A stretch of 28,179 bases of DNA from a virus: the UHGV virus genome UHGV-0383551. One strand, 5' to 3'. Each line of letters opens with the position of its first letter. Positions within the stretch are counted from its first letter, which is position 1. The notes under the pieces were generated by a model that searched no databases, had not been told where the DNA came from, and worked only from the letters and a program-made list of their open reading frames with translations. The position numbers were made by a program, and so were the translations under genes. Positions 2,086 through 24,420 of the stretch are shown one piece after another.

Positions 2086-2188
2086 GTTAAATCTCCAGAT
2101 AGTCGCAGCACCCGTTGCGCCGCATATCTGGTTATTCTATTACCTGAAAAACCACATATGGATAGAAAGACTGTAAATACGAATAGAT

Positions 2189-2205
2189 ATTACCTTTCGG
2201 GTAAT
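2189..2205. promoter_or_regulatory. Inverted-repeat operator-like motif ATTACC-TTTCG-GGTAAT (copy 1 of 4)
   Basis: Read directly from the sequence. Sits in the divergent intergenic region between the tailspike start (2085, minus) and the small plus-strand gene (2281). Confidence 0.6.
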
Positions 2206-2243
2206 TTGCAAAACGTGCTGGATAGCAAACAAATTATTTGATA

Positions 2244-2259
2244 CTGTATAAATATACAG
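2244..2259 (+). promoter_or_regulatory. LexA (SOS) box CTGTATAAATATACAG
   Basis: Matches the CTGT-N8-ACAG consensus with an AT-rich spacer in 15 of 16 positions (with flanks: TACTGTATAAATATACAGTT). Lies 22-37 bp upstream of the ATG at 2281 and overlaps the likely promoter core. Confidence 0.75.
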
Positions 2260-2280
2260 TTATTACATGGAGAAGATAAG

Positions 2281-2538
2281 ATGCAGCAGTATCACTATCC
2301 ACTGGAAGACGGATTTACCGAAAGGATTCACACGCCGGGAGGCGTCAGGTCACTGGTGGAGGGATCGCACTTGATGAAATTACTCCGGGATCTCGATAAG
2401 GATGGATTTAATGTCGATGGCCCACTTGCCGAACTGACTGCACTGATTAACTACGTCACCAGCTCACAGATGTCTATGCAGGATCTACAAACACATCTCG
2501 ACTATTGTGCCGAACAATTACGAAAACAAACCAGATAA
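2281..2538 (+). CDS. Small (85 aa) LexA-controlled protein, paralogous to the C-terminal domain of the downstream Bro-N antirepressor; candidate SOS-inducible antirepressor (Tum/Gifsy-antirepressor-like logic)
   Basis: ORF with GGAG 8 nt upstream of the ATG and a LexA box immediately upstream. Residues GVRSLVEGSHLMKLLRDLDKDGFNVDGPLAELTALINYVTS...DLQTH align by eye with SGVLGLTENSLLMNLLNQLQEDGHDVSGAAAELTTMFCYIVG...DIQTH at the C-terminus of the 2851-3537 protein. Confidence 0.6.
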   Translation: MQQYHYPLEDGFTERIHTPGGVRSLVEGSHLMKLLRDLDKDGFNVDGPLAELTALINYVTSSQMSMQDLQTHLDYCAEQLRKQTR

Positions 2539-2568
2539 GGTTTGCAATTACCAAATGGAGTGCTTATA

Positions 2569-2585
2569 TTTACCTTTGCGGTAAA
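2569..2585. promoter_or_regulatory. Inverted-repeat motif TTTACC-TTTGC-GGTAAA (copy 2 of 4), nested inside a longer inverted repeat GGAGTGC...GCACTCC (2558-2600)
   Basis: Read directly from the sequence; lies between the small SOS gene and the antirepressor gene. Confidence 0.55.
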
Positions 2586-2677
2586 TTTACATCGCACTCC
2601 TCTTGTGCCATAGTAATCGGGCACTGGCAAAATCCAGTGCCGGGATTGGCGTCCCGAGTTACTACAGAGGCACATAT

Positions 2678-2697
2678 GCCGCATAAGCGGTTTTTTT
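2678..2697 (+). terminator. Weak intrinsic terminator or attenuator: short GC stem (CCGC-ATAA-GCGG) followed by seven T
   Basis: Hairpin plus T-tract seen in the sequence. The stem is only 4-5 bp, so termination efficiency is uncertain. Confidence 0.35.
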
Positions 2698-2850
2698 ATG
2701 TGTAAAGCGCACCTATTCTATGGTGGGCTGTGTGGGGGCACCGAAAGGTGCGCCGGGTCCTTTGTAGCCGGTTACGCCAACCCTGCACAGTTCACCACCA
2801 ACCGATTGGCGTCGGTAGTGGTGATTAACCTAACTACAAAGGTGATCGCT

Positions 2851-3537
2851 ATGACTGCTAACGTAACCCCATCTGTTTTTCATTTTGAATCAGAAGCAAC
2901 CATTCGAGCCATTGTTATTGATGGAAATCCTTGGTTTGTTGCCAAAGACGTTATTAAAGCTCTTCAACTGACAAACCCCACTATGTCAATAAAATCTCTT
3001 GATGATGATGAAAGGGCTAAATTTAACTTAGGCCGTCAAGGCGAAACCAATATTATCAACGAGTCAGGCCTCTACACACTGTTCCTCCGCTGCCGCGATG
3101 CGGTGACACCAGGCACTACCCCCTACCGCTTTCGTAAATGGGTTACAGGTGAGGTTCTTCCTCAGATCCGCCGCACCGGAAGCTACATTAAAAACTCGCT
3201 CCCGCAGGAAGAACGCATAAAGATGGTTGCCGACCAGGTAGCCAACGCCACGGCGTCAGCAGTAATGCAGGCGATGAAGATAGAGAACAAAACCTACAGC
3301 GCCCCGCTGAAGCCCGGCTACCGCAGTTTGATTCACTCGCCGTCTGGTGTTCTCGGCCTGACGGAGAACTCACTGCTGATGAATCTGCTGAACCAGTTAC
3401 AGGAAGACGGGCACGACGTATCGGGCGCGGCGGCGGAACTGACCACCATGTTCTGCTACATCGTCGGTGTGAGTAAATGCCTGCGTGATATCCAGACCCA
3501 CGCGGAATACATCAACGACAAGGCAGGGGTCTTCTGA
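2851..3537 (+). CDS. Phage antirepressor with N-terminal Bro-N domain (228 aa from ATG 2851; the track ORF begins further upstream at 2698)
   Basis: The internal ATG at 2851 has AAGGTG 8 nt upstream. The N-terminus SVFHFESEATIRAIVIDGNPWFVAKDVIKALQL...GLYTLFLRCRDAVTPGTTPYRFRKWVTGEVLPQIRRTGSY matches my memory of the Bro-N/AntA domain pattern. The C-terminal domain is paralogous to the 2281-2538 product. Confidence 0.75.
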   Translation: MTANVTPSVFHFESEATIRAIVIDGNPWFVAKDVIKALQLTNPTMSIKSLDDDERAKFNLGRQGETNIINESGLYTLFLRCRDAVTPGTTPYRFRKWVTGEVLPQIRRTGSYIKNSLPQEERIKMVADQVANATASAVMQAMKIENKTYSAPLKPGYRSLIHSPSGVLGLTENSLLMNLLNQLQEDGHDVSGAAAELTTMFCYIVGVSKCLRDIQTHAEYINDKAGVF

Positions 3538-3602
3538 CAGAACGGCGGCACAGGGATGTGCCTTTAAATAATTCTGTACAGATTGCAGGTGAATAGCGTA
3601 CT

Positions 3603-3618
3603 ATTACCCCAAAGGTAA
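3603..3618. promoter_or_regulatory. Inverted-repeat motif ATTACC-CCAAA-GGTAA (copy 3 of 4), about 120 bp upstream of the two-gene cassette
   Basis: Read directly from the sequence. Confidence 0.55.
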
Positions 3619-3735
3619 GAAAGTTGATTTGTAACATTTTAGTTTGTAGTTACCGTGATGGTTTTGCTGCAGAAAGTTAACTAGTCAAAATCACACCGTA
3701 TGTAAGTCACGTCTGTTCCCGTATGGGAGGATGAT

Positions 3736-3954
3736 ATGTTTAAATTTGATATGCAACTCAACCAAAACTATGCCTCTTTTTACCATCCAGAAACTGGTAA
3801 AGCTGTTTTCGTTGACTCTTTCGATAATGAAGAATTTGATATCAGAATTGGGACCCTACGCCAAAGTAAGCATGTTGCTACTGTACGTGCATCCAATGAT
3901 GATGAATTAAATCAAAAAATAAGTGAGGCGACCTCCCGTTATCTATGTCTATAA
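3736..3954 (+). CDS. Hypothetical protein, 72 aa; first gene of an AT-rich two-gene accessory cassette
   Basis: ORF with a strong Shine-Dalgarno (GGGAGG 7 nt upstream). Overlaps the next gene by 10 nt. I recognise no domain. Confidence 0.55.
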   Translation: MFKFDMQLNQNYASFYHPETGKAVFVDSFDNEEFDIRIGTLRQSKHVATVRASNDDELNQKISEATSRYLCL

Positions 3955-4322
3955 CAGAACAACAACTCATTGATCTTGAGGATGAGATTAACGAGATCTT
4001 GCAAGAAGATGCGGCAAGAATTCACTTTTCATTTCACGCAGCATATGAACGCCTGAACGACGAGAGGAACAAACCGCCAATTACTCTTGCTGAGCTTGAA
4101 GATGTGTTTAAATCGTTTATATCTGCACATCTGCAGACTGTTTTGGATTTTGCTGAAGGTACAACTTTCACCATAAAGTGCAACAAAAGCGCCCTTCATT
4201 TTCCTTGCGCCATTGTACACGAAAGAGAGTTTGGGAAAACGTGGGTTATCCAAAACGTCATTACAGCCATGAGGAAAGTGGGATTCAAGTCTAAAGATTC
4301 TATTATCCTCGAAGTTAATTAA
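3945..4322 (+). CDS. Hypothetical protein, 125 aa, with an acidic N-terminal segment; second gene of the cassette
   Basis: The ATG at 3945 overlaps the stop of the upstream gene, suggesting translational coupling. An intrinsic terminator follows directly. I recognise no domain. Confidence 0.55.
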   Translation: MSITEQQLIDLEDEINEILQEDAARIHFSFHAAYERLNDERNKPPITLAELEDVFKSFISAHLQTVLDFAEGTTFTIKCNKSALHFPCAIVHEREFGKTWVIQNVITAMRKVGFKSKDSIILEVN

Positions 4323-4343
4323 GCCCGCACTGAGGGCTTTTTT
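4322..4343 (+). terminator. Intrinsic terminator (AGCCC-GCACTGA-GGGCT followed by TTTTT)
   Basis: Hairpin plus T-tract immediately after the stop codon at 4320-4322. Confidence 0.65.
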
Positions 4344-4415
4344 ATGGACGAAACAAAAGTCAGTGCTACACTCATTGACGCCACATTGAGGTGGCTTATA
4401 GATGGAAATTTCACA

Positions 4416-4577
4416 ATGAAAAAAGCATTTGCTGCACTGTTCGTTTTGTTGTCTCTGGTAGCTTCAACTCAGGCCTTTGCCGGTCGTTGTCAGCACGACA
4501 GCGACACTGCTGCTGACGGCTCCCGCTGCGGTGGGCGTTCTGCGGATTCCCGCCCGGGTGGCGGTGGCATTCGTTAA
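4416..4577 (+). CDS. Possible small secreted peptide (53 aa precursor) with a signal-peptide-like N-terminus MKKAFAALFVLLSLVASTQAFA and a Gly/Arg/Cys-containing mature part
   Basis: Internal ATG of track ORF 4344-4577. Very typical signal peptide with an AxA cleavage motif, but the RBS is weak and the ORF overlaps other open frames in a GC-rich stretch. Confidence 0.3.
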   Translation: MKKAFAALFVLLSLVASTQAFAGRCQHDSDTAADGSRCGGRSADSRPGGGGIR

Positions 4578-4599
4578 AAACAAGGCCGCGAAAGCGGCC
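4573..4599 (-). terminator. Intrinsic terminator ending the minus-strand virion operon (GGCCGC-GAAA-GCGGCC, T-tract on the minus strand)
   Basis: Perfect 6-bp GC stem with a GAAA loop. The plus-strand A-run at 4576-4580 gives the U-tract for the minus-strand transcript. Sits just downstream of the lipoprotein stop at 4609. Confidence 0.7.
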
Positions 4600-4600
4600 T

Positions 4601-4612
4601 GTGACATGTCAC
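4601..4612. repeat. 12-bp perfect palindrome GTGACATGTCAC (copy 1 of 3)
   Basis: Read directly. Its TCA triplet supplies the TGA stop of the minus-strand lipoprotein gene. Confidence 0.6.
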
Positions 4613-4989
4613 GCAACGCAATTATTACCGCGCCATGTAACATTTTTAATAATCTTATCAGCACCAAACTCAACGTAAACAGAGCAACTGAAATGGAGTG
4701 TATAACCGCCATCAGTTGTTGCGTATGTGTTTGAATATATAGTATTACCAATTAGATTAGACGTAGTATTATACGTTGTGGTTTGTGGTACGTTATAACT
4801 ACCAGAGCTTGAGTAAACATACACTCTGTTTCCATCTGGAGATGTAAGCTCTCCCTGAGGATACCCCCACTGCTGAACCATTGCGTCTATACTCTGCCCG
4901 CGCCACGTAAGCATATTTCTTTCAAACTGTGCAGCTGACTGGCATCCAACGAGAAGCATAAATCCAAAAATCAAAAATACTTTTCTCAT
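4609..4989 (-). CDS. Predicted lipoprotein (126 aa from ATG 4989), signal peptide MRKVFLIFGFMLLVGC with lipobox LVGC
   Basis: The internal ATG has AGGGG about 6 nt upstream; the track ORF starts at GTG 5025. Classic lipoprotein signal and lipobox cysteine. Last gene of the minus-strand late operon. Confidence 0.6.
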   Translation of the reverse strand: MRKVFLIFGFMLLVGCQSAAQFERNMLTWRGQSIDAMVQQWGYPQGELTSPDGNRVYVYSSSGSYNVPQTTTYNTTSNLIGNTIYSNTYATTDGGYTLHFSCSVYVEFGADKIIKNVTWRGNNCVA

Positions 4990-5074
4990 AATTACCCCTA
5001 TCATGGAAAAACAGCACCAATCCACAAATTAACTAGTTATTTTATTATTCTTCCGAACAATACAATTCCGAATA

Positions 5075-5197
5075 CTACAAAGCCGAACCATGCCGCTGCA
5101 CGCAACAGAGATTCCAATTGAAACCCATTTTTATCAAAATGTATGAATAGCATAAAAACGCTGCACATATTAGTACAATAAAAGTTATTTGAACCAT
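5075..5197 (-). CDS. Small hydrophobic membrane peptide, about 40 aa (MVQITFIVLICAAFLCYSYILIKMGFNWNLCCVQRHGSAL); frame assignment ambiguous
   Basis: Not in the ORF track because it is under 60 aa. AAGGAG sits immediately after the stop of the 824-aa gene and 5 nt before the ATG at 5197. The alternative track ORF 5037-5225 in another frame also encodes a hydrophobic segment but has no RBS. Confidence 0.35.
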   Translation of the reverse strand: MVQITFIVLICAAFLCYSYILIKMGFNWNLCCVQRHGSAL

Positions 5198-5208
5198 CAT
5201 ATCTCCTT

Positions 5209-7683
5209 TTATTGCGGAGTGACATCCTGTGGTCGCCACCAGTATGTCTGGTTAAACTCTTTCTTCGAACGTTGCTCCATTTTACGCAAATAGCCTGGTG
5301 AAAAATACTCCTGCATCTGGTTAAAGATCATGTGATCGAGAGCCGCCTTCAAGTACCAGAGATTCGCACCAGGCATCAAACCTTTCCCCAGCTTCACCAG
5401 ATCACCACCAGTCTGCTCACTCTTCCCTTCCACAGCATTTAACGGTATGCCCTGAGCAATCTTCACTACGTCATCAACCAGACCAGCTACCGGGCCAAGC
5501 ATCGACGCCAGCGCGCCGCTTCCGTACCTAGTGTGATCTGACAATAAAAAGTCACCGTAAAGGCCAAGACCACCACCTTTCAGTAGAGCACCAAGCCAGA
5601 ATTTTGCGGCATCTTCTCCTGTCATCTCTCGAGGATTACGACCAGACGCAAGGTCGTTAAGTTGCTGCGACAAAGCGCCAAGAATGGTCGTACTGGCAAT
5701 AAACGTCGCAATATATGCCGCACGCCCACCAGCAGACGGCATACCCATAGCGCGTGACCAGTGACGCATAACAACCGAGATAGGGAACGATTTAAACAGG
5801 AAAACACTTCTCGTTAATTCACCTTTCCATGTTCCACGCTGAATACCAGAACCGGTTATCAGTTGCTCACGTGCTCCCGGTGTAATAACAGCCATATCAA
5901 CTTCTTCAGTTACGGCACCGAGCAGTTTACGCATTGCCTCAAATTTCACGCGTTCAGGCTCACCAAGATGTTTAACTGCTGAATCAGAGATACGCATAAT
6001 GCTTTCCGGTGTCAGCATCGTATTATTACCGTTCCCCCAGTCCTCCTGTTTCGCCAGCTTCCATACGCTCCAGTCTGTGTCAGTAATCCCTTTGCTTTTC
6101 AGGATACGAAAATCAGAGTCATCGAGGCTACGAAGGTCTGGTGTCCGTGACACTACTTCTCCCAGGCTTCCCATCATGGTTACGCCATAGGCGCGCTTGT
6201 GCGCATCTGACCATGCTGTAAGCCCACTGGCACGCATTACCGCCGTTGCCGCCCAACGAGACACTGACGGCCCCATATTATCCATCGCCCAGCGGTTAAC
6301 GCTGCCAAGTAGAGATTCCATCGCCAGACCAGCGCGGCGCGCCCGCGCAAGTTCTGTACGGTTCGTTGGGTCCATAGCTTCAAGCTGGTTGCGGAATAAC
6401 TGGTTCATTGGAAGGTTGGTAACCTTCGCAGACAGATACATGGTTCCAAGATCAGAGAACGATGACAGCAACGCGGATCCGAGTCTGCTGGCAACCAGCC
6501 AGTTGCGGATATTGTCAGACCATCGCGCGATGTGCGGATTCGCTACAGGCTGTGTCTTTCCGGAAATAAAGTTGTACAGATTCTCTGTGTTGTTCGCCAG
6601 CCGCTCGACTTTACCGGTTTTACTCGGGTTAGCTGTTGCCGTTTCTGCCTTCACCTGATCAAGAAGAGAGCGGAAAACATGATCGGGGTTTGGGCCATAT
6701 GTTTCCACCAGTGCAATATCTTTACTGATACCTTCCAGGTGACCGACCATGATTTCCCATAGAGAGCGATCGCCATAAAGTTGCTGATATTGCAGATAGG
6801 AATCTGCATCTTTGAAATGTATCTGTCGTGATGCATTACCACGGTTAGCACGTGCGCCGGAAATTCGCATTCCGGTATCAGTAAGCTTATTCAGCCCACC
6901 AGTAGCGATCGTGTTATAAGCCTCTCCAAGAAATGAAGACAACTCGGCATCGTTCATCAGTTGTCCATCGGCTCGGATATAATATTTGCGATCCAGCTTA
7001 CCTATAACATCGCTAACCCACTTATCCTTTGATACTGCCCCAACCTTTTCCATAGAATGATGTTGAGGGATCCCCCAGTTTTCGAGATAGCCAATGTCCC
7101 CACCAGCATCATTAAACCGGCGGCGCAGCAGCTCTGTAACTTCTCTCCACGCCTTAGCACCGTTTCTTGCTTTAGCATTGCCAGTATTTTGCCCCCGCAT
7201 TTCATATACCAGGTCACGTACGCCCGCTTCATCTTCAAACAGACCAAAAAAGCGAGGATCAACTGCTTCGAATGCCTCCTGCAATTGACTCAATGCATAA
7301 TCACGGGTGGCTTTTGTTCTGGATTCAACAGAGAGGAAATTAGATTTACCGTCTGCATTAAAAGCTATAGTACGGTTAAGAGCGCCAAGTTTCCCATCAG
7401 CCCCTTGATAGCTATTGATAAATTTATCCAATCTCTGACGCGCGGCTATAGTGAGAGCCACACGACGTTTCTTTAATGCCGCTTCTCGCTGTAATTCTTC
7501 AGATGCCAATTGTGCTGCTCGATATAGCCGCTCTGATTCGGAAAGTTGTCGCCACGACATAGGGTCATCACGAGCAATGGAGCGCATATTTCGATAAATG
7601 CGGTCTTCAATGTTCTGTATTTCTCGCGCCGTTAACATGCGCTGCGCCGCCTGCTGAACCGCTTGTATACATTCCTGTCTCAT
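5209..7683 (-). CDS. Large internal virion / ejection protein (824 aa); by position, the distal part of a T7 gp16-like function
   Basis: Long ORF in the virion operon after the other internal proteins. Assignment is by synteny and size only. Confidence 0.5.
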   Translation of the reverse strand: MRQECIQAVQQAAQRMLTAREIQNIEDRIYRNMRSIARDDPMSWRQLSESERLYRAAQLASEELQREAALKKRRVALTIAARQRLDKFINSYQGADGKLGALNRTIAFNADGKSNFLSVESRTKATRDYALSQLQEAFEAVDPRFFGLFEDEAGVRDLVYEMRGQNTGNAKARNGAKAWREVTELLRRRFNDAGGDIGYLENWGIPQHHSMEKVGAVSKDKWVSDVIGKLDRKYYIRADGQLMNDAELSSFLGEAYNTIATGGLNKLTDTGMRISGARANRGNASRQIHFKDADSYLQYQQLYGDRSLWEIMVGHLEGISKDIALVETYGPNPDHVFRSLLDQVKAETATANPSKTGKVERLANNTENLYNFISGKTQPVANPHIARWSDNIRNWLVASRLGSALLSSFSDLGTMYLSAKVTNLPMNQLFRNQLEAMDPTNRTELARARRAGLAMESLLGSVNRWAMDNMGPSVSRWAATAVMRASGLTAWSDAHKRAYGVTMMGSLGEVVSRTPDLRSLDDSDFRILKSKGITDTDWSVWKLAKQEDWGNGNNTMLTPESIMRISDSAVKHLGEPERVKFEAMRKLLGAVTEEVDMAVITPGAREQLITGSGIQRGTWKGELTRSVFLFKSFPISVVMRHWSRAMGMPSAGGRAAYIATFIASTTILGALSQQLNDLASGRNPREMTGEDAAKFWLGALLKGGGLGLYGDFLLSDHTRYGSGALASMLGPVAGLVDDVVKIAQGIPLNAVEGKSEQTGGDLVKLGKGLMPGANLWYLKAALDHMIFNQMQEYFSPGYLRKMEQRSKKEFNQTYWWRPQDVTPQ

Positions 7684-7688
7684 TTAAT

Positions 7689-9491
7689 TTAACCTCTCAA
7701 GAAACACGCCACAGCGACATCAAACAGGCTGGAATCCTGTATTGCCTGCTCACTTTCCCTGTTCGCTTCATCCAGTGCTTCACGCGCACTGCGCGATTGT
7801 GGATTACCATCATCATCCAGCACGGTGATTATCATGTCAGGTGATTCAAGCAGCGAGTCTTCAGCTATGCGCAAATCAATATCTCCTGCCTGATCTGACA
7901 TCATTTTTTGTTCTGCCTGTTGCAATATTTTATCAGGCTCAAAAGGAGCTACTTCGTCTGGCGTCCTGACCTCTGCTGTTTTATAGAATGAAACAGCCTG
8001 AGCATTAAGTTCACTTTCTGCCTGCTGTCTCCGAGCCAGTTCTGCTCGAGCTTCAAAAAACTGACCGCCAGGCTCATGCGGTGCCAACGCGTTACGAGAA
8101 AATTCCAGGCGTTCTTGTGCCTGCCGGATTCGTTGGTCAATATCGCGAAGTCTGGCCTGTTTATCTGATCGAGCACGAGATAAAGCCTTACCGCTACCGG
8201 CTGGATCTTCTGCAAGAATTTGTGCGCGCTGTTCAGTGAGATTTTCAATAATTCGTTGGCTATTAGCGATTTCAGACTGGTAAACCTGTCTATCGCCACG
8301 CGGCAAAAGCTGCGCGGCCTGTTCTTCAAGCAACCGATTTTCTATAGCGCGCGCCGTTACTCCATCATCTACAGATGACAGAGCCTCATTAACTGCCTGA
8401 GACAGCAGACTCTTGCGTCCAGGAATTTCACTGAAAGATGCAGACTCAACAATGCTGGCAACGTCTACAGGTCTCCCCTGGCTAACATCAGACATGGCTT
8501 TTCGCAGAGCCTGAATGTGCGAATTACGCGAAAGCACGTTGATCGGCACGCCGGGAGCAATATCAATTTCAGCATGATGAGCGGCATTCGCCGCCAGTGC
8601 AGCATCGATATCAACTGGTGAAAAATTTGGTGCGCTTGTAGACTCGCCGCGAGAGTTAATAAATCTGCCGACACCACCAAACGCCACCCCAAGAACAGCA
8701 TCAATAGCAATTGCCTGTCGATCCAACACATCATACTGGTTAGCCATTTCGCTATAGCCACCATCACGAAGCGTTTTTGCAGTAAGCCCACGCTGTGCCA
8801 TACCGAACGCAATATTTGTACCTGCGGCATAGGCAATATCTGGCGTTGCACGTACTGCTGTTGCTGCGGCGCGTCGCACTGAACTTTCACCCGTCCGCGC
8901 AAGCTGAGCCGCCACACCTTCCGCCAGCGCACCACCAGCACGTAACCCGAGGCTCATAGGGATCAGTGTTCCGGCACCAGCAGTAATACCCTGCACTAAT
9001 CCCGCTTCCTGCGCCGTCCTGAAATCAACACCCTGTGCTGTAAGCCGTTCAAACTCAGAAAAACCCTGTAGAGAAGTTACCGCCGCAGCACCTCCGACCG
9101 GACCACCGAGCGTTGTACCGACAACAGCCTGCCCGCCCATATCGAACAACCCATAAAGGACCTGCCCGGCGGTTCCGGTTGTCGCGGCATCAGGCGTCAG
9201 CCGCTTAACCTGCTGCTCTGCTAGTTTTCTCTGCTCAGCAATGTATGAAACTGAAGTGTCATTGATCGAGGTGTTTTCGTTAACAAACTGAGCAATCGGG
9301 GATACGATTTTATCCATCCCTGCCCATAGCAACTGATCTGGCTTTGCCACCAGCCCGGAGTACAAACCAGACAATGCCGCTCCTACAGCATTGTCGAAAA
9401 AACCAACATCGCTGTTAAAACCAGCTGGATTTGATGCTGCTTCGTCAAGCTGCTGATTCTGGTTTACTGGATTAAGGCCAAAGTAACTCAT
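7689..9491 (-). CDS. Internal virion / ejection protein (600 aa) with a Gly/Ala-rich hydrophobic N-terminal third
   Basis: ORF overlapping the upstream gene by 4 nt. Composition is typical of membrane-interacting ejection proteins. No domain confirmed. Confidence 0.5.
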   Translation of the reverse strand: MSYFGLNPVNQNQQLDEAASNPAGFNSDVGFFDNAVGAALSGLYSGLVAKPDQLLWAGMDKIVSPIAQFVNENTSINDTSVSYIAEQRKLAEQQVKRLTPDAATTGTAGQVLYGLFDMGGQAVVGTTLGGPVGGAAAVTSLQGFSEFERLTAQGVDFRTAQEAGLVQGITAGAGTLIPMSLGLRAGGALAEGVAAQLARTGESSVRRAAATAVRATPDIAYAAGTNIAFGMAQRGLTAKTLRDGGYSEMANQYDVLDRQAIAIDAVLGVAFGGVGRFINSRGESTSAPNFSPVDIDAALAANAAHHAEIDIAPGVPINVLSRNSHIQALRKAMSDVSQGRPVDVASIVESASFSEIPGRKSLLSQAVNEALSSVDDGVTARAIENRLLEEQAAQLLPRGDRQVYQSEIANSQRIIENLTEQRAQILAEDPAGSGKALSRARSDKQARLRDIDQRIRQAQERLEFSRNALAPHEPGGQFFEARAELARRQQAESELNAQAVSFYKTAEVRTPDEVAPFEPDKILQQAEQKMMSDQAGDIDLRIAEDSLLESPDMIITVLDDDGNPQSRSAREALDEANRESEQAIQDSSLFDVAVACFLRG

Positions 9492-12001: not shown

Positions 12002-12013
12002 CTTATTATCCCC

Positions 12014-15488: not shown

Positions 15489-16096
15489 CAGGACAACCTC
15501 GCAATGGTAAACTCGTCAACCGGTGGCAGTGGTTCCTGTGATTCATTCTGGCTATGCGAGCCAGCACTAAGAATCACGCGATTGTACATATTGAGGGCAA
15601 ACGTACCGAGGTCTGCATTCCCAGTCAGCGCCATGTTAATAGCTGCCGCAAGACGCCAGGCCAACGCCTCCATAAAAATGGCATCAAACATGTTCACATC
15701 TGAAACGCGAGAGACATACTTGAGCCATGCCTGCGGCTGGTCTGTGTAGATCAACTTTCCTGTTCCGTTGGTGTCTGCACCAACTTCGTACTGAACGCGC
15801 ATTGCTGCTGTTGGATTGCGTACACCAGGAAGCATAATTTCAGTAATGCGCAGACAATCGGACGGGTACTGATACGCATATTCCCAGTCAGGCGGTGGAT
15901 TGCTCGTATCTGCAAGCGCCACGCGTTTGGTAGCAAAGTTCCAGTCAAAATCAGAAAGCACAGCATCACGGCAGGCCTCAAAGTGCAGCGAACATTCCCC
16001 CGCTTCCTTGCTGGCTTCCGTCAGGCTGTTAATGCTGCGGCTATTGCCAATATTGGACAGCGCACGATTACAGATCTCTACTACAGAGGCCATCAC
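15488..16096 (-). CDS. Tail tubular protein A-like / head-tail adaptor, 202 aa
   Basis: Size and position match T7 gp11 (196 aa). Inference from synteny. Confidence 0.45.
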   Translation of the reverse strand: MMASVVEICNRALSNIGNSRSINSLTEASKEAGECSLHFEACRDAVLSDFDWNFATKRVALADTSNPPPDWEYAYQYPSDCLRITEIMLPGVRNPTAAMRVQYEVGADTNGTGKLIYTDQPQAWLKYVSRVSDVNMFDAIFMEALAWRLAAAINMALTGNADLGTFALNMYNRVILSAGSHSQNESQEPLPPVDEFTIARLS

Positions 16097-16422
16097 TCAC
16101 CCCCGTTACCGTAGAGGGTTTCAGCCGCTGATTTTTCTACATCACCGGAAACAGGAGCGATTGCCATATCAGTGATCTGCAGATCGGCGCTGCGATTAAC
16201 ACCATCGTCAGTTTCTCTGGCAGACAGGCCTCGAATAACAGCCTTTGCAGTTATCATCACTTCTGTTCCGACGCCCTGAGGTTGCGCCTTCAGCTTATTC
16301 AATGTGTCGTTATTAAGAGTGATGCACAGCCCCCACGGGTATTCATCGCGAGTTCTGGTTTCTCCGCTCTCATCCTGGTAGCTGTCAGTGCCGGTTTTGA
16401 GGTTTACGAGTTCCATATACAC
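16093..16422 (-). CDS. Small head-tail joining or head completion protein (109 aa)
   Basis: ORF overlapping the downstream gene by 4 nt, between the capsid and tail genes. Confidence 0.4.
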   Translation of the reverse strand: MYMELVNLKTGTDSYQDESGETRTRDEYPWGLCITLNNDTLNKLKAQPQGVGTEVMITAKAVIRGLSARETDDGVNRSADLQITDMAIAPVSGDVEKSAAETLYGNGGE

Positions 16423-16466
16423 TCCTGCAATAAAGGGGCCGAAGCCCCTTGTCGGATTCGCGAGGC

Positions 16467-16811
16467 TTACACGCCCAGTTCTTTACGCTTATCTGCGATC
16501 TTCTCGCGGAGCGTTTCGGCTTTAGCGTTATGGTGTGGCTTCTCGTTAAAGAGCAATTCGTACTCTTCACGGAGCTTATCCAGTTCACCATCATCTGACA
16601 CATCATTGATGATTTTGGTGCTGGTTGCTGCCATTGACACCTTTCCTGCAACTTTTGCTTTTGCCTGTCTGGCTGCATCGTTAACAGGTTCCAGTGCGCT
16701 ACCAGGCTCACCTTCGTATTCGATTTCTGCCCCCTCCGGCCACAGAGTGTTATGGATATGAGAGAGGCGCAGAACGAGGTATCTTGGTTTCTCACCTGAC
16801 ATCGATATCAC
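16467..16811 (-). CDS. Hypothetical virion-module protein (114 aa)
   Basis: ORF starting directly after the stop of the upstream gene. An alternative overlapping frame (16385-16795) was judged less likely. Confidence 0.4.
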   Translation of the reverse strand: MISMSGEKPRYLVLRLSHIHNTLWPEGAEIEYEGEPGSALEPVNDAARQAKAKVAGKVSMAATSTKIINDVSDDGELDKLREEYELLFNEKPHHNAKAETLREKIADKRKELGV

Positions 16812-16812
16812 C

Positions 16813-17250
16813 TTAACCAGTTACTTTTGAGCGGATCGGATACGGCGTATTGGCATCAACATCAAGACTGATACCAGCAGTGAATTCGCCAGCCGTTAGT
16901 GGGCCAGTTGCGACGGAGTAGTTAACACGCAGATATCGCTGAACACCGGCAGGCACCTTTGCAGAAACAACTCGTTTACCTGCTGTCAGGGCGGTCTTTG
17001 CCAGTGCGCCACTATCATAAATAGTGGTCCATGAGCTGTTATTTTCACTCGTCTGCAACTGGATGTTTACAGTTGCATCACCGCTTGCCGCGGCGGCTGT
17101 GTTAACCAGCGCCCAAAACTCAAGCTGGTAACCAACGCCGATATCACGACGTTTTCCGTCAATTGGACCGAGATCGATTACGTCAGTAGAAGCCGCGGTA
17201 TCAGTTACCGCCTGTGCTTCGGAGAACATCAACAGTTTGTCGGTGATCAT
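16813..17250 (-). CDS. Capsid-associated protein (145 aa), possibly a decoration or cement protein
   Basis: ORF immediately downstream of the major capsid gene; Thr/Ala/Ser-rich, predicted beta-rich. Assignment by position only. Confidence 0.4.
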   Translation of the reverse strand: MITDKLLMFSEAQAVTDTAASTDVIDLGPIDGKRRDIGVGYQLEFWALVNTAAAASGDATVNIQLQTSENNSSWTTIYDSGALAKTALTAGKRVVSAKVPAGVQRYLRVNYSVATGPLTAGEFTAGISLDVDANTPYPIRSKVTG

Positions 17251-17301
17251 CTTCTTTCTCCATTAGTGGGTCTGTTACGACCCACAGGTTAATAACAGGC
17301 G

Positions 17302-18294
17302 TTACACCACGCGGGCTTCTGTTTCCAGAAGCGCATCAGTTTCACGGATTGGTACACCACGGAATGAAGTCCACCACTCGCCTTCTGTCTCTTTTACGCT
17401 GATAGCCAGAGATGTTTTCTCCAGAGACTGCAGATCAAGAGCCTGGCCTACAGTGCGGTTCATGTAGAACACCGGGCGGCCCATGCCACGGTTTGGAATG
17501 CGATGTAGTGCTTTAACCATCAACTTCGCAATATTTGCGGCAGAGGATGGTTCTGAAAGATTGCTGACATCGATGTTTGCAATGCGAACAACATAACGCC
17601 AGTCACGCAGAGCAAGTCCGTTATCCCATTTGTAATGGGTGCGATAGCCTTCGTACTTGCCGCCATTAGCATCTTCCAGTGTCACCTGGCCTTTATCTTC
17701 CATCTGGATGCCAGCCTTCTGCCCTTTCGGGAAGATGCCATGCACGGTGTTTTCGCCCCACACCACTAACCAGATTGAAGTGTTATCTGTACCCGTGCCA
17801 CCAGCATCAATGATGTTCTGAGCATTACCCGCAGACAGGCTGGAATAGCGGGAGGACAGTCCCATAAACTGCTGAGGGTTAACGCTGGAATCACCATAAA
17901 ACAGCGTCTGCGCCATCTGCTGATTCATCGCTTCAATAAATGCGCGGTCTTCAGACAGGCGGAATTCGGCGGTATTGCCGTTCAGATCAGCCAGTGACTT
18001 ATCGACTTCCGCATAGGTTTCCAGCATGCCAACGGAATCGGTTACCTGCACTGTGGTTGATTTGCTTGGCTGTACGCCATAGTTCAGCAAACGCCAGGTA
18101 GCTGAAGGTAAACCAGAACGAATGGTGGTTCGGTGTCCGGTAGGAAGGTTCCCTTCGACAAAAGGCATATCCTGAAGGATCGGGTTAGTTTGACCGAGAA
18201 GCTCGATAATCTTATCGACTTTCCCGTTTGGATCGACGCGCTTACCCCAGTCAGCCAGCGTTAGCGCAGTTAAGCCTTTAACAGCCATTGTCAT
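17302..18294 (-). CDS. Major capsid protein (330 aa)
   Basis: Position directly after the scaffold-like gene, with size typical of HK97-fold capsid proteins of epsilon15-type phages (about 335 aa from memory). Confidence 0.7.
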   Translation of the reverse strand: MTMAVKGLTALTLADWGKRVDPNGKVDKIIELLGQTNPILQDMPFVEGNLPTGHRTTIRSGLPSATWRLLNYGVQPSKSTTVQVTDSVGMLETYAEVDKSLADLNGNTAEFRLSEDRAFIEAMNQQMAQTLFYGDSSVNPQQFMGLSSRYSSLSAGNAQNIIDAGGTGTDNTSIWLVVWGENTVHGIFPKGQKAGIQMEDKGQVTLEDANGGKYEGYRTHYKWDNGLALRDWRYVVRIANIDVSNLSEPSSAANIAKLMVKALHRIPNRGMGRPVFYMNRTVGQALDLQSLEKTSLAISVKETEGEWWTSFRGVPIRETDALLETEARVV

Positions 18295-18302
18295 TTCCTC
18301 TC

Positions 18303-19004
18303 TTATTTGCCATAGAGCACTTCGGCCGCACTACGCTGGCCTTCATTACCACCGGTGACCATGCCATCTTCAGACATCGCCTTTCCGATTTTCACGAACG
18401 TTTTGACCAGATCAGGGTGATTACCCAGCCCGGTGGTGTTCAGATATTCTTTGAGTTCAGGTGTCCCGAACTGGTCAAGCGCACGCTGTGCGGCGCTAAG
18501 GTTAGAAATCAACTTGTCGCCACCGATTTCTTTGTCGGCTTTTACATCCGCAGCCCACTGCTCGGTTGTTTTCTGCCAGGCTTCTGCCTGGCGCTGCTGA
18601 ACACCTGCCAGAATCTTCGGATAAGCATCAACCAGCTTTTGCGCTTGCTCGTTGGTCAGGTTTAGTTCTCGCGCCACCGGCTCGAATTCCTTCAACGCTT
18701 CTGTATCCAGCTCTACGCCTTCGGCAGCCTGAAACTCGTACTTTTCAGGCGCACCCTCTGGTTTATCGCCGTCCTTTTTTTCATCCTGCTTATCGTTTTC
18801 AGGCTTTTTGTCATCAGCAGGTTTATCGCCATCAGCAACAGGTTGTGGCTTATCACCTTCCTGTTGTGATGGATCACCAACTGGAGCAGGGTTATCACCT
18901 GCAGGCGCTGACGGTTCTGACGCAGCCGGAGCTGCTCCACCATCGACTGGTTGCTCATTGCAAAGACGGCGATACAGCAAACGCTCAAATAAATTCATGA
19001 TCAC
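18303..19004 (-). CDS. Scaffolding protein (233 aa)
   Basis: Acidic, low-complexity Pro/Asp/Lys/Glu-rich central region with predicted helical ends, located between the portal and capsid genes. Confidence 0.5.
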   Translation of the reverse strand: MIMNLFERLLYRRLCNEQPVDGGAAPAASEPSAPAGDNPAPVGDPSQQEGDKPQPVADGDKPADDKKPENDKQDEKKDGDKPEGAPEKYEFQAAEGVELDTEALKEFEPVARELNLTNEQAQKLVDAYPKILAGVQQRQAEAWQKTTEQWAADVKADKEIGGDKLISNLSAAQRALDQFGTPELKEYLNTTGLGNHPDLVKTFVKIGKAMSEDGMVTGGNEGQRSAAEVLYGK

Positions 19005-19297
19005 TCCTGTTCACTGGCCTCTTTGGCCATCTTCAAATACTGTTCAGGGCAATGCGCCATAACGCGCTGAAACAGTTCCAGCGCCAGATTGCGTTGCCCC
19101 TCATTAAATGCCATTGCCATAGCATCCATCGGAGAGATAGCGGAAAACACCCGGCCTTTCTCCAGCACCGACCAGACAACGCGACGCCCCTGTTCACTGC
19201 TCATGACAAAGCAAATGTCATCAATTTCACGCTGTGCCATGTCACGTTGCTTACGGGCGTTTTCTTCTTTCAGTTGATCGTCTTCGTAATCTGTCAT
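19001..19297 (-). CDS. Hypothetical small protein (98 aa) between portal and scaffold
   Basis: ORF with 4-nt overlaps to both neighbours, suggesting translational coupling. Confidence 0.45.
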   Translation of the reverse strand: MTDYEDDQLKEENARKQRDMAQREIDDICFVMSSEQGRRVVWSVLEKGRVFSAISPMDAMAMAFNEGQRNLALELFQRVMAHCPEQYLKMAKEASEQE

Positions 19298-20973
19298 TGT
19301 GATTGCCCACCCTGACCACTAACTGCATTCGCCATAGCTGACAAAACACTCGGATCCGAAGTTTTAGCTTCGCTTAGCGTCTTGGCACCCTGTGCCGCCG
19401 CCATCCCCATCGCCATCATTTGTTGCTGCTGTTGTTGCTGTGCCCGTTGCTGGCGAGCCTGCTCAACCTGTTCCTGCGGAACAATGACGGTTGGAGACAC
19501 TCCGGACATATCAGCGAATGCATCGATCGCCTGATCAACGTTGAGTTTGTCGAGAGCTTCTGGTTTCGCTTGCGCAAGTTGACCAATGAAGTTGACCGTA
19601 GACGCCAGACTGGACAGGCCGATAGACTTCTGCGCCTGAGCCATGACGGAAATGTATTCGACCTTCAGGGGCATACCTTCCATTGCGTCAGGCGGTGGCG
19701 GCAGCATGTTTTTACGCACCATCATCGAGAAAGCGCGGTCAATGAGAGGATTAAGACATTCGTCGTTCAGACGCTCCAGAACCGGCCCCAACATCAGAAG
19801 TTTTTCTTCTTTCATTTCGATCACCGCTTCAACAGGCATCGAGCGGGTATTGATGTTCTGCAACATCATGAACAGATCGACAAAGTAGGCGCTGTTAATG
19901 ATTTGACGGGTGTCCTGAATGTCTGCCACCAAATCTGCTGTACTGGGGTTAACCAGATAAGCAGGCCTGAAGCCATCCTGACCAGTAATCTGATCGATAT
20001 ACGTGATGTCGCCAGGAAGAAGGGAGGCGCGCTGATTCTTGAGGGAAGTCGGAGCAACCATCGGCGGATTGGTGGCTTTATCAATCAACTGCGACTTGCG
20101 CTTCTGGAGAAGCTGCAATGCCTTAACAGGTCCAAGCGCCAGCATACCCGGGCATGATGATCCATAAACATCTTCGCCATTAACTTCCCAGCGCGGAGCC
20201 ATAATTGGAAACTCATCAAATCCGGACTCACGCAACAACTTGTCGTTATCGCCACCAACCTCGTAATAAACCGATTTGAATGGCTTGTTCTTGCTATCCA
20301 GCTTCGATGTATCGCGGTCAATGTTCGGGTAAACCGAATGCATCACGTCAATCCACTTCTCGTAGGTGCCGCTTTCCCACATGCTTTTTACGGATTCGCT
20401 GACGTTATTTAGCCCGAACTCCTGAACAAGCTGACGAACAGTCATAGAGAACTTGCGAAAACAGGTGTCCACACTGCCACGAGGTGAGTTAGCCAGGTAG
20501 TAACTGCCTATCGGGAATGGCATTGTGCGAATGATGTCCTCGTCATCCTCCAGCACCGCCATTGCACCAGTGCTGTATGTGCCGAGGCTTCCGTATAACT
20601 GCGGAAGAGACTGGTAGAGATTCGACTTATTGAACATATCGTTCATGCGGTTCTGCACCGCCTCGAGCCACAACTTAACAGGACCATAATCCATCATTTC
20701 AGGATCTGGCGTAGCCAGGCGAAACCACGGACGCGCAGGGCTTGTGATGCCTGACATCATGCCGCTGGCGAGAGTGCGCGCCGCCATAGTCCCGGTCGAA
20801 TCAATAATGCGTGTATTGCGTCGATCGTTACGGTTGACCTCAGAAGTCAGAAAGCGGGAACCACGCGGGTTGATGTAATCACTCAACTCGCGCCAGTGCG
20901 GCTCGAACGACTGACGCTCGCTTTCAAGTTGTGCGAACTGTTTGTTCAATCGCTCTTTAGTTGTTTCCGCCAT
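19294..20973 (-). CDS. Portal (head-to-tail connector) protein, 559 aa
   Basis: Size and position; Gln-rich C-terminal tail (QQRAQQQQQQQMMAMGMAAAQ) as in podovirus portals; GGAG about 9 nt upstream of the ATG. Confidence 0.7.
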   Translation of the reverse strand: MAETTKERLNKQFAQLESERQSFEPHWRELSDYINPRGSRFLTSEVNRNDRRNTRIIDSTGTMAARTLASGMMSGITSPARPWFRLATPDPEMMDYGPVKLWLEAVQNRMNDMFNKSNLYQSLPQLYGSLGTYSTGAMAVLEDDEDIIRTMPFPIGSYYLANSPRGSVDTCFRKFSMTVRQLVQEFGLNNVSESVKSMWESGTYEKWIDVMHSVYPNIDRDTSKLDSKNKPFKSVYYEVGGDNDKLLRESGFDEFPIMAPRWEVNGEDVYGSSCPGMLALGPVKALQLLQKRKSQLIDKATNPPMVAPTSLKNQRASLLPGDITYIDQITGQDGFRPAYLVNPSTADLVADIQDTRQIINSAYFVDLFMMLQNINTRSMPVEAVIEMKEEKLLMLGPVLERLNDECLNPLIDRAFSMMVRKNMLPPPPDAMEGMPLKVEYISVMAQAQKSIGLSSLASTVNFIGQLAQAKPEALDKLNVDQAIDAFADMSGVSPTVIVPQEQVEQARQQRAQQQQQQQMMAMGMAAAQGAKTLSEAKTSDPSVLSAMANAVSGQGGQSQ

Positions 20974-20987
20974 TTCAATGACTCCGG

Positions 20988-21194
20988 TTACTGACCAAGC
21001 AGCGTTTTACCGCTGGTATTAGCGGTTGATGTGTCGCCCTGAGAACCGGTAAGCAGCGTAGAACTACGACCAGCAGCAGCGCGACGGCGACGTGTTTCTT
21101 CGTCGCGGGCATCAACAACGGCGGCATCCTGCTCCTGTGGTGCTGCCTGAACTTCTGGTGTTGCAGGCACTGACGGTGAGCTACCCATGCACAT
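20988..21194 (-). CDS. Small low-complexity protein (68 aa) preceding the portal gene
   Basis: The start context ACGGAGTCATTGAT-ATG nearly duplicates the portal start context CCGGAGTCATTGAA-ATG. An alternative overlapping frame (20975-21214) was judged less likely. Confidence 0.4.
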   Translation of the reverse strand: MCMGSSPSVPATPEVQAAPQEQDAAVVDARDEETRRRRAAAGRSSTLLTGSQGDTSTANTSGKTLLGQ

Positions 21195-21283
21195 ATCAAT
21201 GACTCCGTACGCAATTAAATGATCACCAATTTAACCACATATGATTTATTGATCGTAGATAGTTGACATTTAACGCATGAATT

Positions 21284-21299
21284 ATTACCTTTCAGGTAA
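21284..21299. promoter_or_regulatory. Inverted-repeat motif ATTACC-TTTCA-GGTAA (copy 4 of 4)
   Basis: Read directly from the sequence; about 90-105 bp upstream of the minus-strand ORF start at 21194. Confidence 0.55.
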
Positions 21300-21698: not shown

Positions 21699-21741
21699 GA
21701 ATCACGCCTAAGGACCGTGATGCCAGAAGTTCCAGGTGCTT

Positions 21742-24412: not shown

Positions 24413-24420
24413 AACCACCG

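What the first reader, a model, noticed from the sequence alone, without database searches (positions are those of the whole stretch)
2189..21299. Four copies of the inverted-repeat motif ATTACC-N5-GGTAA, all intergenic
TTACC-N5-GGTAA occurs at 2189-2205, 2569-2585, 3603-3618 and 21284-21299. With ten fixed positions, the chance expectation in 28 kb is about 0.03 copies, so four is far beyond chance. All four are in non-coding DNA upstream of accessory or late genes: the SOS gene and tailspike, the antirepressor, the two-gene cassette, and the portal-side operon. This is the signature of a binding site for a dimeric regulator that co-ordinates the accessory island with the late genes. The half-site also appears in a different arrangement (GGTAA-N3-TTACC) immediately upstream of the small terminase gene.
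Basis: seen in the sequence. Interest (0 to 1): 0.6.

Follow-up and report, generated by a model that had tools for sequence, protein, structure and literature searches.

The report
Prophage repressor operators scattered between genes
The repeated ATTACC-N5-GGTAAT palindrome is real and far beyond chance, but it is the already-annotated binding site of the master lysogeny repressor (Rep) of epsilon15/phiV10-type phages, so this is an ordinary, well-behaved regulatory motif, not a new system.

Summary
The motif is real. TTACC-N5-GGTAA occurs five times exactly in the window, not four (2190, 2570, 3604, 21285, 24430). A sixth copy with one mismatch lies at 24412. Chance expects 0.02.

The window is an epsilon15/phiV10-like (Uetakevirus) prophage. 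Six relatives from Escherichia, Salmonella, Enterobacter and Klebsiella each carry 8-11 exact copies, always with N5 spacing. Nearly all are intergenic and sit at homologous positions, including both sides of the repressor gene.

The epsilon15 GenBank and RefSeq records already annotate these 16-17 bp sites as "repressor" binding sites. The repressor is homologous to SPC32H Rep (PDB 5D50). Window ORF 2281-2538, behind a LexA box, is the SPC32H-type antirepressor Ant. A contig of the same phage carries rep about 10 kb left of the window, flanked by the same motif.

A Pseudomonas phage cI with a homologous HTH domain is flanked by the same half-sites at N4 spacing.

Verdict: these are Rep operators spread over every transcription unit. 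They are further members of a known kind. Binding itself was not tested here. Interest is low.

The parts
2189..2205 (.). Operator 1, ATTACCTTTCGGGTAAT, between tailspike (leftward) and ant (rightward)
   Evidence: Homologous to the epsilon15 site 19895-19911, annotated protein_bind 'repressor'. It fills the 16-bp spacer of a weak leftward promoter candidate, TTGCAA (2211-2206) / TATCTA (2189-2184), which I read from the sequence (inference).
2569..2585 (.). Operator 2, TTTACCTTTGCGGTAAA, at the start of the isrK-like/C4-like/Bro antirepressor unit
   Evidence: The promoter-like TTGCAA-17-TATATT at 2542-2570 (+) ends on the operator's first base. An extra ATTACC half-site lies at 2547-2552. 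The site is conserved in phiV10, L002 and Tyrion.
3603..3619 (.). Operator 3, ATTACCCCAAAGGTAAG, upstream of the variable cassette (ORFs 3736-3954, 3945-4322, 4344-4577)
   Evidence: The same operator with an identical left flank is in the E. coli FDAARGOS_1257 prophage, but different genes follow immediately to its right.
21284..21300 (.). Operator 4, upstream of the gp3-like gene (20988-21194, -) and portal gene (19294-20973, -). It reads CTTACCTGAAAGGTAAT on the - strand.
   Evidence: Homologous to the epsilon15 site 2931-2947, annotated 'repressor'. It is conserved in all seven sequences while the flanks diverge.
24429..24445 (.).
   Evidence: Homologous to the epsilon15 site 12-27, annotated 'repressor'.
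24412..24426 (.). Operator 6, degenerate (TAACCACCGTGGTAA, one mismatch), 18 bp from operator 5 and abutting the terS start
   Evidence: The same tandem pair is in phiV10, L002, epsilon15 and Tyrion.
2244..2259 (+). LexA box CTGTATAAATATACAG, filling the spacer of TTGATA (2238-2243) -17- TATTAC (2261-2266), the ant promoter candidate
   Evidence: Read from the sequence. LexA consensus from general knowledge.
   Evidence: phmmer against PDB chain 5D50_E 'Anti-repressor protein', E = 4e-47. The homologous gene is annotated ant in SPC32H.
2621..2697 (+). isrK-like small RNA ending in an intrinsic terminator (2678-2691 plus a T-run)
   Evidence: Rfam RF01394, 74.2 bits. Terminator scan.
2716..2802 (+). 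C4 antisense-RNA-like element
   Evidence: Rfam RF01695, 79.5 bits.
2851..3537 (+). Bro-N antirepressor-like gene. The start is probably ATG 2851, not 2698.
   Evidence: The Pfam Bro-N match begins at residue 69 of the long ORF.
1..2085 (-). Tailspike / tail fibre, N-terminal part, running off the window
   Evidence: The ORF is open from ATG 2085 to the window edge. Homology to phiV10 gp25 and epsilon15 gp20 context.
24464..24481 (-). Intrinsic terminator immediately upstream of operators 5 and 6
23816..24409 (-). terS (small terminase), with its start at ATG 24409
   Evidence: The epsilon15 and Tyrion annotations use the equivalent ATG.
2150..2160 (-). Second conserved motif CATATGTGGTT, 42 bp from the centre of operator 1, followed 7 nt later by TAATAG (late-promoter-like)
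21233..21243 (-). Second conserved motif CATATGTGGTT, 54 bp from the centre of operator 4

Best explanation
The sites are operators for the prophage's master lysogeny repressor, Rep. Rep is about 194 aa, with an N-terminal HTH domain and a C-terminal tetramerisation domain. It is encoded about 10 kb to the left of the window.

Each operator is a 17-bp palindrome, A-TTACC-wwWww-GGTAA-T. One HTH domain reads each TTACC half-site.

In this phage genus the operators are not confined to the immunity region. One or two sit at the head of essentially every transcription unit. In this window those units are tailspike, the isrK/C4/Bro antirepressor unit, the variable cassette, the portal/head operon and terS.

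In the lysogen, Rep bound at these sites keeps all those units silent. It does so either by occupying the promoter spacer or -10 region (shown by position for operator 2 and for the OR-like site; inferred for operator 1), or by blocking or looping (operators 4-6, inferred).

On DNA damage, LexA leaves the box in front of ant (2244-2259). Ant is made, binds Rep and removes it from all operators at once. The Rep-controlled Bro antirepressor unit would then reinforce the switch.

Shown here: motif statistics, positions, conservation, homology of Rep and Ant, and co-occurrence of the half-site with the HTH family. Not shown here: physical binding and its regulatory effect.
For: 1. Enrichment is extreme and specific to one spacing. 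There are 5 exact copies against 0.02 expected, only N5 is enriched in all seven sequences, and there are no exact copies in 109.5 kb of host DNA.
2. In phiV10, 12 of 14 sites lie in the 6.5% of the genome that is intergenic (binomial P = 4.5e-13). The other two lie in a disputed 5' extension of terS.
3. The epsilon15 RefSeq and GenBank records annotate seven of these sites as protein_bind 'repressor / lysogeny'. Three are positional homologues of window operators 1, 4 and 5.
4. The motif flanks the repressor gene on both sides in phiV10, epsilon15, SPC32H, Tyrion, BUCT711 and L002.
5. Contig KM389360.1 is 100% identical to window 1-8000. It carries rep (99.5% identical to the L002 prophage Rep used as query; phiV10's Rep scores the same) with operators on both sides of it.
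6. The L002 prophage Rep, the closest sequenced relative of this phage's Rep, matches PDB 5D50_A, SPC32H 'Repressor', at E = 3.5e-42. The window's ant matches 5D50_E at E = 4e-47.
7. Across six Reps that are only 43-78% identical overall, the N-terminal segment NLVNRW is invariant. This fits the invariant half-site.
8. Pseudomonas phage PseuP_224 cI shares only the N-terminal HTH domain (39% identity) and has a different C-terminal domain. It is flanked by ATTACCCGTAGGTAAT, TTACCTGTTGGTAA and ATTACCCACAGGTAAT. These are the same half-sites at N4 spacing.
9. One-mismatch variants are never compensated on the other arm, and the centre base is A/T in 98% of sites. This is behaviour typical of a protein site.
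10. Operator pairs recur at 62, 48 and 17-18 bp in every genome. That fits a tetrameric, loop-forming repressor as described for SPC32H Rep.
Against: - No binding or expression experiment could be run.
- The primary papers (Kropinski 2007; Kim & Ryu 2013; Kim et al. 2016) are not in the library. The experimentally defined operator sequence could therefore not be read. The link rests on database annotation plus comparative evidence.
- At the tailspike and portal operons, and at the lysis operon of relatives, the operator centre lies 42-54 bp upstream of a conserved promoter-like element. That puts it at about -67 to -79, so simple promoter occlusion does not explain repression there.
- The sigma-70 scan found a threshold-passing promoter only at operator 2.
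- A Cro-like protein would be expected to share the same operators, so Rep may not be the only ligand.
Confidence: 0.85

Rival explanations
1. The sites are primarily the target of a different phage regulator, not the lysogeny repressor. Candidates are the Cro-like product next to rep, or a late or middle regulator such as the PerC-like or gp55/gp49-like protein.
For: At late operons the site lies upstream of a conserved promoter-like element instead of on it. In lambda-type switches Cro shares the repressor's operators (general knowledge). No binding data were available here.
Against: The half-site travels with the Rep-type N-terminal HTH domain even into a Pseudomonas phage with a different genome context. 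The epsilon15 annotators assign the sites to the repressor. Offsets to the downstream promoter element (42, 45, 54 bp) are not in helical phase, which argues against an upstream activator site.
Confidence: 0.08
2. The palindromes act as RNA or DNA hairpins, such as terminators, processing sites or stability elements, and not as protein-binding sites.
For: Each copy can form a 5-7 bp hairpin. Site 2 has a z-score of -4.8 against shuffles.
Against: The hairpins are weak, at -3.3 to -5.4 kcal/mol, and three of the five are not better than shuffles. None is called terminator-like, since there is no GC-rich stem with a T-run. The arm sequence is invariant instead of co-varying, and single mismatches are never compensated. 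Several sites lie upstream of likely transcription starts, or between divergent genes.
Confidence: 0.02
3. The repeats are recombination or mosaic-boundary sequences kept by module exchange, with no regulatory role of their own.
For: At operator 3 the cargo genes differ between the window and L002 immediately to the right of the operator, while the left flank is identical.
Against: This does not explain the strict palindromy, the fixed N5 spacing, the A/T centre, the tandem and 62-bp pairs, or the presence on both sides of rep in every genome. A boundary role could coexist with operator function.
Confidence: 0.03

Closest known systems
Repressor-binding sites of Salmonella phage epsilon15 (protein_bind 'repressor', records NC_004775.2 and AY150271.2) and the Rep-Ant switch of the epsilon15-like phage SPC32H (PDB 5D50, 5D4Z)
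   Same: The 17-bp palindrome ATTACC-N5-GGTAAT is identical. The positions are the same: upstream of terS, upstream of the gp3/portal operon, and between ant and the tail fibre gene. Rep is homologous, and Ant is homologous and sits behind a LexA box.
   Different: The window's phage has the phiV10-type Rep allele, about 43% identical to the epsilon15 and SPC32H Reps. It has two operator-headed units that those Salmonella phages lack: the isrK/C4/Bro unit and a variable cassette.
Phage P1 C1 repressor with operators dispersed over the genome, including the operator of the immI (c4-icd-ant) operon (general knowledge)
   Same: A master repressor has many operators spread over the genome instead of one immunity region. 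An antirepressor operon preceded by a C4-type antisense RNA is under the primary repressor's operator (for the C4 and isrK matches).
   Different: By my recollection, P1 operators are asymmetric 17-mers of unrelated sequence, bound by a monomer. Here the site is a strict palindrome read by paired HTH domains. The proteins are unrelated.
Mycobacteriophage L5 gp71 'stoperators' (general knowledge)
   Same: Many repressor sites lie in short intergenic gaps throughout the early and late regions. Some sites here (terS, and gp42 and nin in relatives) lie just downstream of terminators, where a roadblock role is conceivable.
   Different: Stoperators are asymmetric and depend on orientation. These sites are symmetric. 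A block to elongation has not been shown for this genus.
Lambda CI OL/OR operators (general knowledge)
   Same: They are 17-bp two-fold-symmetric operators in multiples on both sides of the repressor gene. They overlap divergent promoters, and cooperative, looping oligomers bind them.
   Different: Lambda operators are confined to the immunity region, and late genes are controlled indirectly through Q. Here operators also head the structural, lysis and accessory units. Induction works through an antirepressor, not RecA-mediated self-cleavage. Rep lacks an S24 peptidase domain.

Membership tests
Uetakevirus (epsilon15/SPC32H/phiV10) Rep operator | 17-bp palindrome A-TTACC-N5-GGTAA-T, identical to the sites annotated as repressor-binding in epsilon15 | tested here: met
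   The symmetrised profile of 52 exact sites is.
Uetakevirus (epsilon15/SPC32H/phiV10) Rep operator | Fixed N5 spacing of half-sites, with enrichment restricted to phage DNA | tested here: met
   (only N5 is enriched in seven sequences). (0 exact in 109.5 kb of host DNA against 9 in the prophage).
Uetakevirus (epsilon15/SPC32H/phiV10) Rep operator | Positional homology with the annotated epsilon15 operators | tested here: met
   Operators 1, 4 and 5 align with epsilon15 sites 19895-19911, 2931-2947 and 12-27. Operators 2 and 3 have counterparts only in phiV10-type relatives.
Uetakevirus (epsilon15/SPC32H/phiV10) Rep operator | The cognate Rep gene is present in the same phage and is flanked by the same motif | tested here: met
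   (contig KM389360.1, identical to window 1-8000; rep at 1528-2112; operators at 1410, 1458, 2170 and 2232). The gene lies outside the window.
Uetakevirus (epsilon15/SPC32H/phiV10) Rep operator | Rep and Ant are homologous to the structurally characterised SPC32H pair, and ant sits behind a LexA box | tested here: met
   The LexA box was read.
Uetakevirus (epsilon15/SPC32H/phiV10) Rep operator | Physical binding by Rep, and Rep-dependent repression of the adjacent promoter | not testable with these tools
   The primary papers are not held.
Lambda-type immunity-region operators | Operators are confined to the two promoters flanking the repressor gene | tested here: not met
   Sites also occur at terS, the portal, tailspike and lysis operons, the nin region and the antirepressor units.
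P1 C1-type dispersed operators | Asymmetric 17-bp operator recognised by a monomeric repressor | tested here: not met
   The site is a strict palindrome. The P1 consensus is recalled from general knowledge.
L5-type stoperators | Asymmetric site whose orientation relative to transcription is fixed | tested here: not met
   The site is symmetric, so no orientation can be defined.
Intrinsic (rho-independent) terminator | GC-rich stem followed by a T-run | tested here: not met
   None of the six sites is called by the terminator scan. Hairpins are only -3.3 to -5.4 kcal/mol.

The most novel reading that the evidence does not exclude
In this genus the lytic programme might be wired without a conventional cascade. 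On this reading, a tetrameric, loop-forming repressor directly silences every transcription unit through dispersed operators. The late operons (portal, tailspike, lysis) carry a second, so far undescribed conserved element, CATATGTGGTT-N7-TAnnAT. It sits at a fixed 42-54 bp from the operator and would define a special class of late promoter, either activator-dependent or gated by Rep looping. Operator strength (exact versus one-mismatch sites) and operator pairing (62, 48 or 17-18 bp) would then set the order of derepression. I found no description of this bipartite module, but I could not read the epsilon15 and SPC32H papers.
Probability: 0.15. Interest if true: 0.5.

Novelty: new member of a known kind. 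Interest (0 to 1): 0.25.

Why it matters
The result explains the motif fully enough to close the finding.

Practical value is modest:
- It corrects gene starts (terS at ATG 24409; Bro at ATG 2851).
- It identifies the induction circuit of a prophage type that is common in E. coli. A 5.2-kb probe from the window hit 1,041 of 5,426 complete genomes, though these hits include partial matches to unrelated phages.
- It shows that variable cargo cassettes are inserted directly behind a Rep operator, so they are probably silent in the lysogen and expressed on induction.

The genome-wide spread of operators and the fixed-offset second motif are the only parts that might repay further work.

Tried and rejected
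1. RNA hairpin or terminator reading. Rejected: the folds are weak, there is no T-run, and the arms do not co-vary.
2. 'Common genome-wide' refutation test. There were no exact copies in 109.5 kb of E. coli chromosome, and half-site density equals that of the prophage, so the motif is not a compositional artefact. A whole-genome count was not possible with these tools.
3. Reading the primary literature on epsilon15, phiV10 and SPC32H. None of it is held. The ZX5 paper defines no operator sequence. Only second-hand descriptions of SPC32H Rep were available.
4. A generic sigma-70 scan to place every operator on a promoter. Only operator 2 overlaps a threshold-passing promoter. The other promoter assignments are my own reading and are weak.
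5. An exact-match search for the whole prophage in complete E. coli genomes. There was no hit covering at least 80% of the accessory region. A related prophage (L002) and the partial phage contig KM389360.1 were used instead.
6. Pfam and NCBIfam searches on the cassette ORFs, the gp55-like ORF and the gp3-like ORF. No families were found.
7. A literature search for the second motif CATATGTGGTT. Only unrelated primer hits came back.
8. The one-mismatch site next to int in relatives (TTACC...GGTAT). It is embedded in a larger palindrome that epsilon15 annotates as integrase and RNase III sites. I do not count it as a confident operator.

Full report
**The observation.** An exact scan for TTACC-N5-GGTAA finds five copies in the window: 2190, 2570, 3604, 21285 and 24430. 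The expectation from dinucleotide-preserving shuffles is 0.02. Allowing one mismatch adds a sixth copy at 24412-24426.

The 'different arrangement' GGTAA-N3-TTACC (24422-24434) is simply the right half of the degenerate copy meeting the left half of the exact copy. These two copies are 18 bp apart centre to centre.

Every copy is non-coding once gene starts are set properly:
- The tailspike starts at ATG 2085 on the minus strand.
- The Bro-N gene probably starts at ATG 2851, because the Pfam domain begins at residue 69 of the long ORF.
- terS starts at ATG 24409, the start used in the epsilon15 and Tyrion annotations.

Only the N5 spacing is enriched. Spacings from N0 to N12 give zero or one copy. 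In 109.5 kb of E. coli chromosome there is no exact copy, against nine in the 39.5 kb related prophage. The bare half-site is equally frequent in both, about 3 per kb.

**What the window is.** Megablast shows an epsilon15/phiV10-type podovirus prophage of the genus Uetakevirus, in reverse orientation relative to phiV10. The layout is:
- the tailspike N-terminus at the left end;
- a small island of rightward genes at 2.2-5.2 kb;
- the structural genes from 5.2 to 24.4 kb on the minus strand;
- nin-like early genes at the right end.

**The motif elsewhere.** I examined phiV10, an E. coli prophage inserted at guaA (L002), epsilon15, SPC32H, Enterobacter phage Tyrion and Klebsiella phage BUCT711. 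Each has 8-11 exact copies, and 13-18 with up to one mismatch.

In phiV10, 12 of 14 copies lie in the 6.5% of the genome that is intergenic (P = 4.5e-13). The other two are in the disputed 5' extension of terS.

The copies occupy homologous positions in all genomes: upstream of terS, upstream of the gp3/portal operon, between ant and the tail fibre gene, upstream of the lysis genes, in the nin region, and on both sides of the repressor gene. At those positions the half-sites are conserved while the central five bases and the flanks drift.

A symmetrised profile of 52 exact sites gives A-TTACC-wwWww-GGTAA-T, with an A/T centre in 98% of sites.

**Who binds it.** Seven lines of evidence point to the lysogeny repressor.
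- The epsilon15 RefSeq and GenBank records annotate seven of these sites as protein_bind, bound moiety 'repressor', note 'lysogeny'. Three of them are the positional homologues of window operators 1, 4 and 5.
- The L002 prophage repressor (99% identical to phiV10's) matches the SPC32H 'Repressor' chain of PDB 5D50 at E = 3.5e-42.
- Window ORF 2281-2538 matches the 'Anti-repressor protein' chain of the same entry at E = 4e-47. It sits behind a LexA box, CTGTATAAATATACAG at 2244-2259, which fills the spacer of a TTGATA-17-TATTAC promoter candidate (read).
- The partial phage contig KM389360.1 is 100% identical to window 1-8000. It carries rep (99.5% identical to the L002 prophage Rep used as query; phiV10's Rep scores the same) about 10 kb to the left of the window. 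One-mismatch and exact operators lie between rep and the divergent cro-like ORF, and two exact operators lie just downstream of rep.
- Six Reps that are only 43-78% identical overall keep an invariant NLVNRW segment in the N-terminal HTH domain. This fits the invariant half-site.
- The cI of Pseudomonas phage PseuP_224 shares only that N-terminal domain (39% identity) and has a different C-terminal domain. It is flanked by ATTACCCGTAGGTAAT, TTACCTGTTGGTAA and ATTACCCACAGGTAAT. These are the same half-sites at N4 spacing. The half-site thus travels with the HTH domain, and the spacing changes with the oligomerisation domain.
- One-mismatch variants are never compensated on the other arm, and the hairpins are weak (-3.3 to -5.4 kcal/mol). 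No site is terminator-like. An RNA-structure reading is therefore rejected.

**How it probably works.** Papers I could read describe SPC32H Rep as binding palindromic DNA as a tetramer. Its DNA-binding pairs are drawn from different dimers, and a tetrameric Ant takes it apart. Its tetramerisation domain is of a DNA-looping type.

The recurrent operator spacings fit such a protein. Pairs occur at 62 bp (OL-like and nin regions), 48 bp or 17+30 bp (OR-like region) and 18 bp (terS) in every genome.

Operator position differs between sites:
- Operator 2 begins on the last base of a promoter-like TTGCAA-17-TATATT.
- In phiV10 the OR-like operator lies in the spacer of the rightward promoter candidate.
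- Operator 1 exactly fills a 16-bp spacer between TTGCAA and TATCTA on the tailspike strand. This is my reading, and the -10 is weak.

Promoter occlusion is plausible at these three sites.

At the portal and tailspike operons, and at the lysis operon of relatives, the operator lies 42-54 bp upstream of a second conserved element. How Rep acts there is inferred, not shown. It could repress an overlapping weak promoter, act as a roadblock, or form a loop.

Operators 5 and 6 lie directly after an intrinsic terminator and abut the terS start. No convincing promoter is seen there.

Operator 1 is about 76 bp upstream of the ant start region. Ant can therefore be expressed under LexA control alone while Rep is still bound, as the antirepressor logic requires.

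**Comparison with known systems.** This is the same system as the epsilon15 repressor sites and the SPC32H Rep-Ant switch, with the phiV10-type Rep allele. In architecture it resembles P1 C1 and mycobacteriophage L5 gp71, which also have many operators outside the immunity region. It fails their defining feature of asymmetric sites.

It differs from lambda in two ways. The operators are dispersed, and induction works through an antirepressor, not self-cleavage.

Operator 2 heads an isrK-like RNA, a terminator, a C4-like antisense RNA and then a Bro-N antirepressor. This is the layout of the P1 immI operon, which is also under its primary repressor.

**Novelty and score.** The motif and its assignment are already in public annotation for the type phage of the genus. 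The window adds further members, two of which (operators 2 and 3) have no epsilon15 or SPC32H counterpart. I could not read the primary papers, so I cannot say how much of the genome-wide architecture has been discussed in print. The fixed-offset second motif is the only element for which I found no prior description. Overall this is a correct observation with an ordinary explanation, and interest is 0.25.

Noticed in passing
window 2150-2160 (-) and 21233-21243 (-); phiV10 (L001) 3308, 20921, 24739, 35116; epsilon15 (L003) 2988, 24751, 35953: A second conserved motif, CATATGTGGTT, lies on the gene-direction strand at fixed offsets from the Rep operator centre. The offset is 54 bp at the portal operon in the window and all six relatives, 42 bp at the tailspike, and 45 bp at the lysis operon. 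It is followed 7 nt later by a -10-like hexamer: TAATAA, TAATAG, or TATAAT/TATGAT. In phiV10 the lysis copy is a perfect palindrome, AACCATATATGGTT, inside TTAACC-17-TATAAT. It looks like the spacer element of a distinct class of late promoter. No literature match was found.
   Followed up: partly
window 2621-2697 (+) and 2716-2802 (+): There are Rfam matches to isrK (74 bits) and C4 antisense RNA (79.5 bits), separated by an intrinsic terminator (2678-2691 plus a T-run). They lie between operator 2 and the Bro-N antirepressor gene. This is a P1 immI-like (c4-ant) layout. It also means the long ORF 2698-3537 is over-called, and the real start is probably ATG 2851.
   Followed up: partly
window 2244-2259 and 2281-2538: A near-consensus LexA box fills the spacer of the promoter candidate for an 85-aa ORF. 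That ORF is a close homologue of the SPC32H antirepressor Ant (PDB 5D50 chain E, E = 4e-47). This phage therefore carries two different antirepressor-type genes side by side, Ant and Bro-N.
   Followed up: yes
window 3619 onward, compared with L002 39964 and downstream: The sequence to the left of operator 3 is shared with the FDAARGOS_1257 prophage, but different genes follow immediately to its right. Other relatives carry YafO-family toxin genes in this region (annotation). The operator marks the edge of a cargo-exchange hotspot. The window's cassette ORFs (3736-3954, 3945-4322, 4344-4577) have no Pfam or NCBIfam match.
   Followed up: partly
window 21622-21698 (+): A tRNA-Arg (anticodon TCT) sits between terL and the portal operon, on the strand opposite to the structural genes. 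It overlaps the mechanical ORF 21628-21879.
   Followed up: no
window 2123-2160: On the tailspike strand, CATATGTGGTT (2160-2150) and AACCAGATATG (2133-2123) form a 10/11 inverted repeat. It encloses AGGTAATAGAAT, the sequence that carries the ATG annotated as the tail-fibre start in the epsilon15 RefSeq record (20017). In the E. coli-type phages the tailspike starts about 50 nt further on, at ATG 2085. This may be a leader hairpin over a relic start site.
   Followed up: no
L010 (Pseudomonas phage PseuP_224, OP795451.1) 2921-2974 and 3798-3837: A cI repressor with a Rep-like N-terminal HTH domain but a different C-terminal domain is flanked by ATTACC/GGTAAT palindromes with 4-bp spacing instead of 5-bp. 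The half-site specificity of this HTH family seems to extend well beyond the enterobacterial Uetakeviruses.
   Followed up: partly
L001-L006, operator pairs: Centre-to-centre spacings of neighbouring operators recur across genera. They are 62 bp (OL-like and nin pairs), 48 bp or 17+30 bp (OR-like region) and 18 bp (terS). This suggests fixed geometry for cooperative or looped binding by a tetramer.
   Followed up: no
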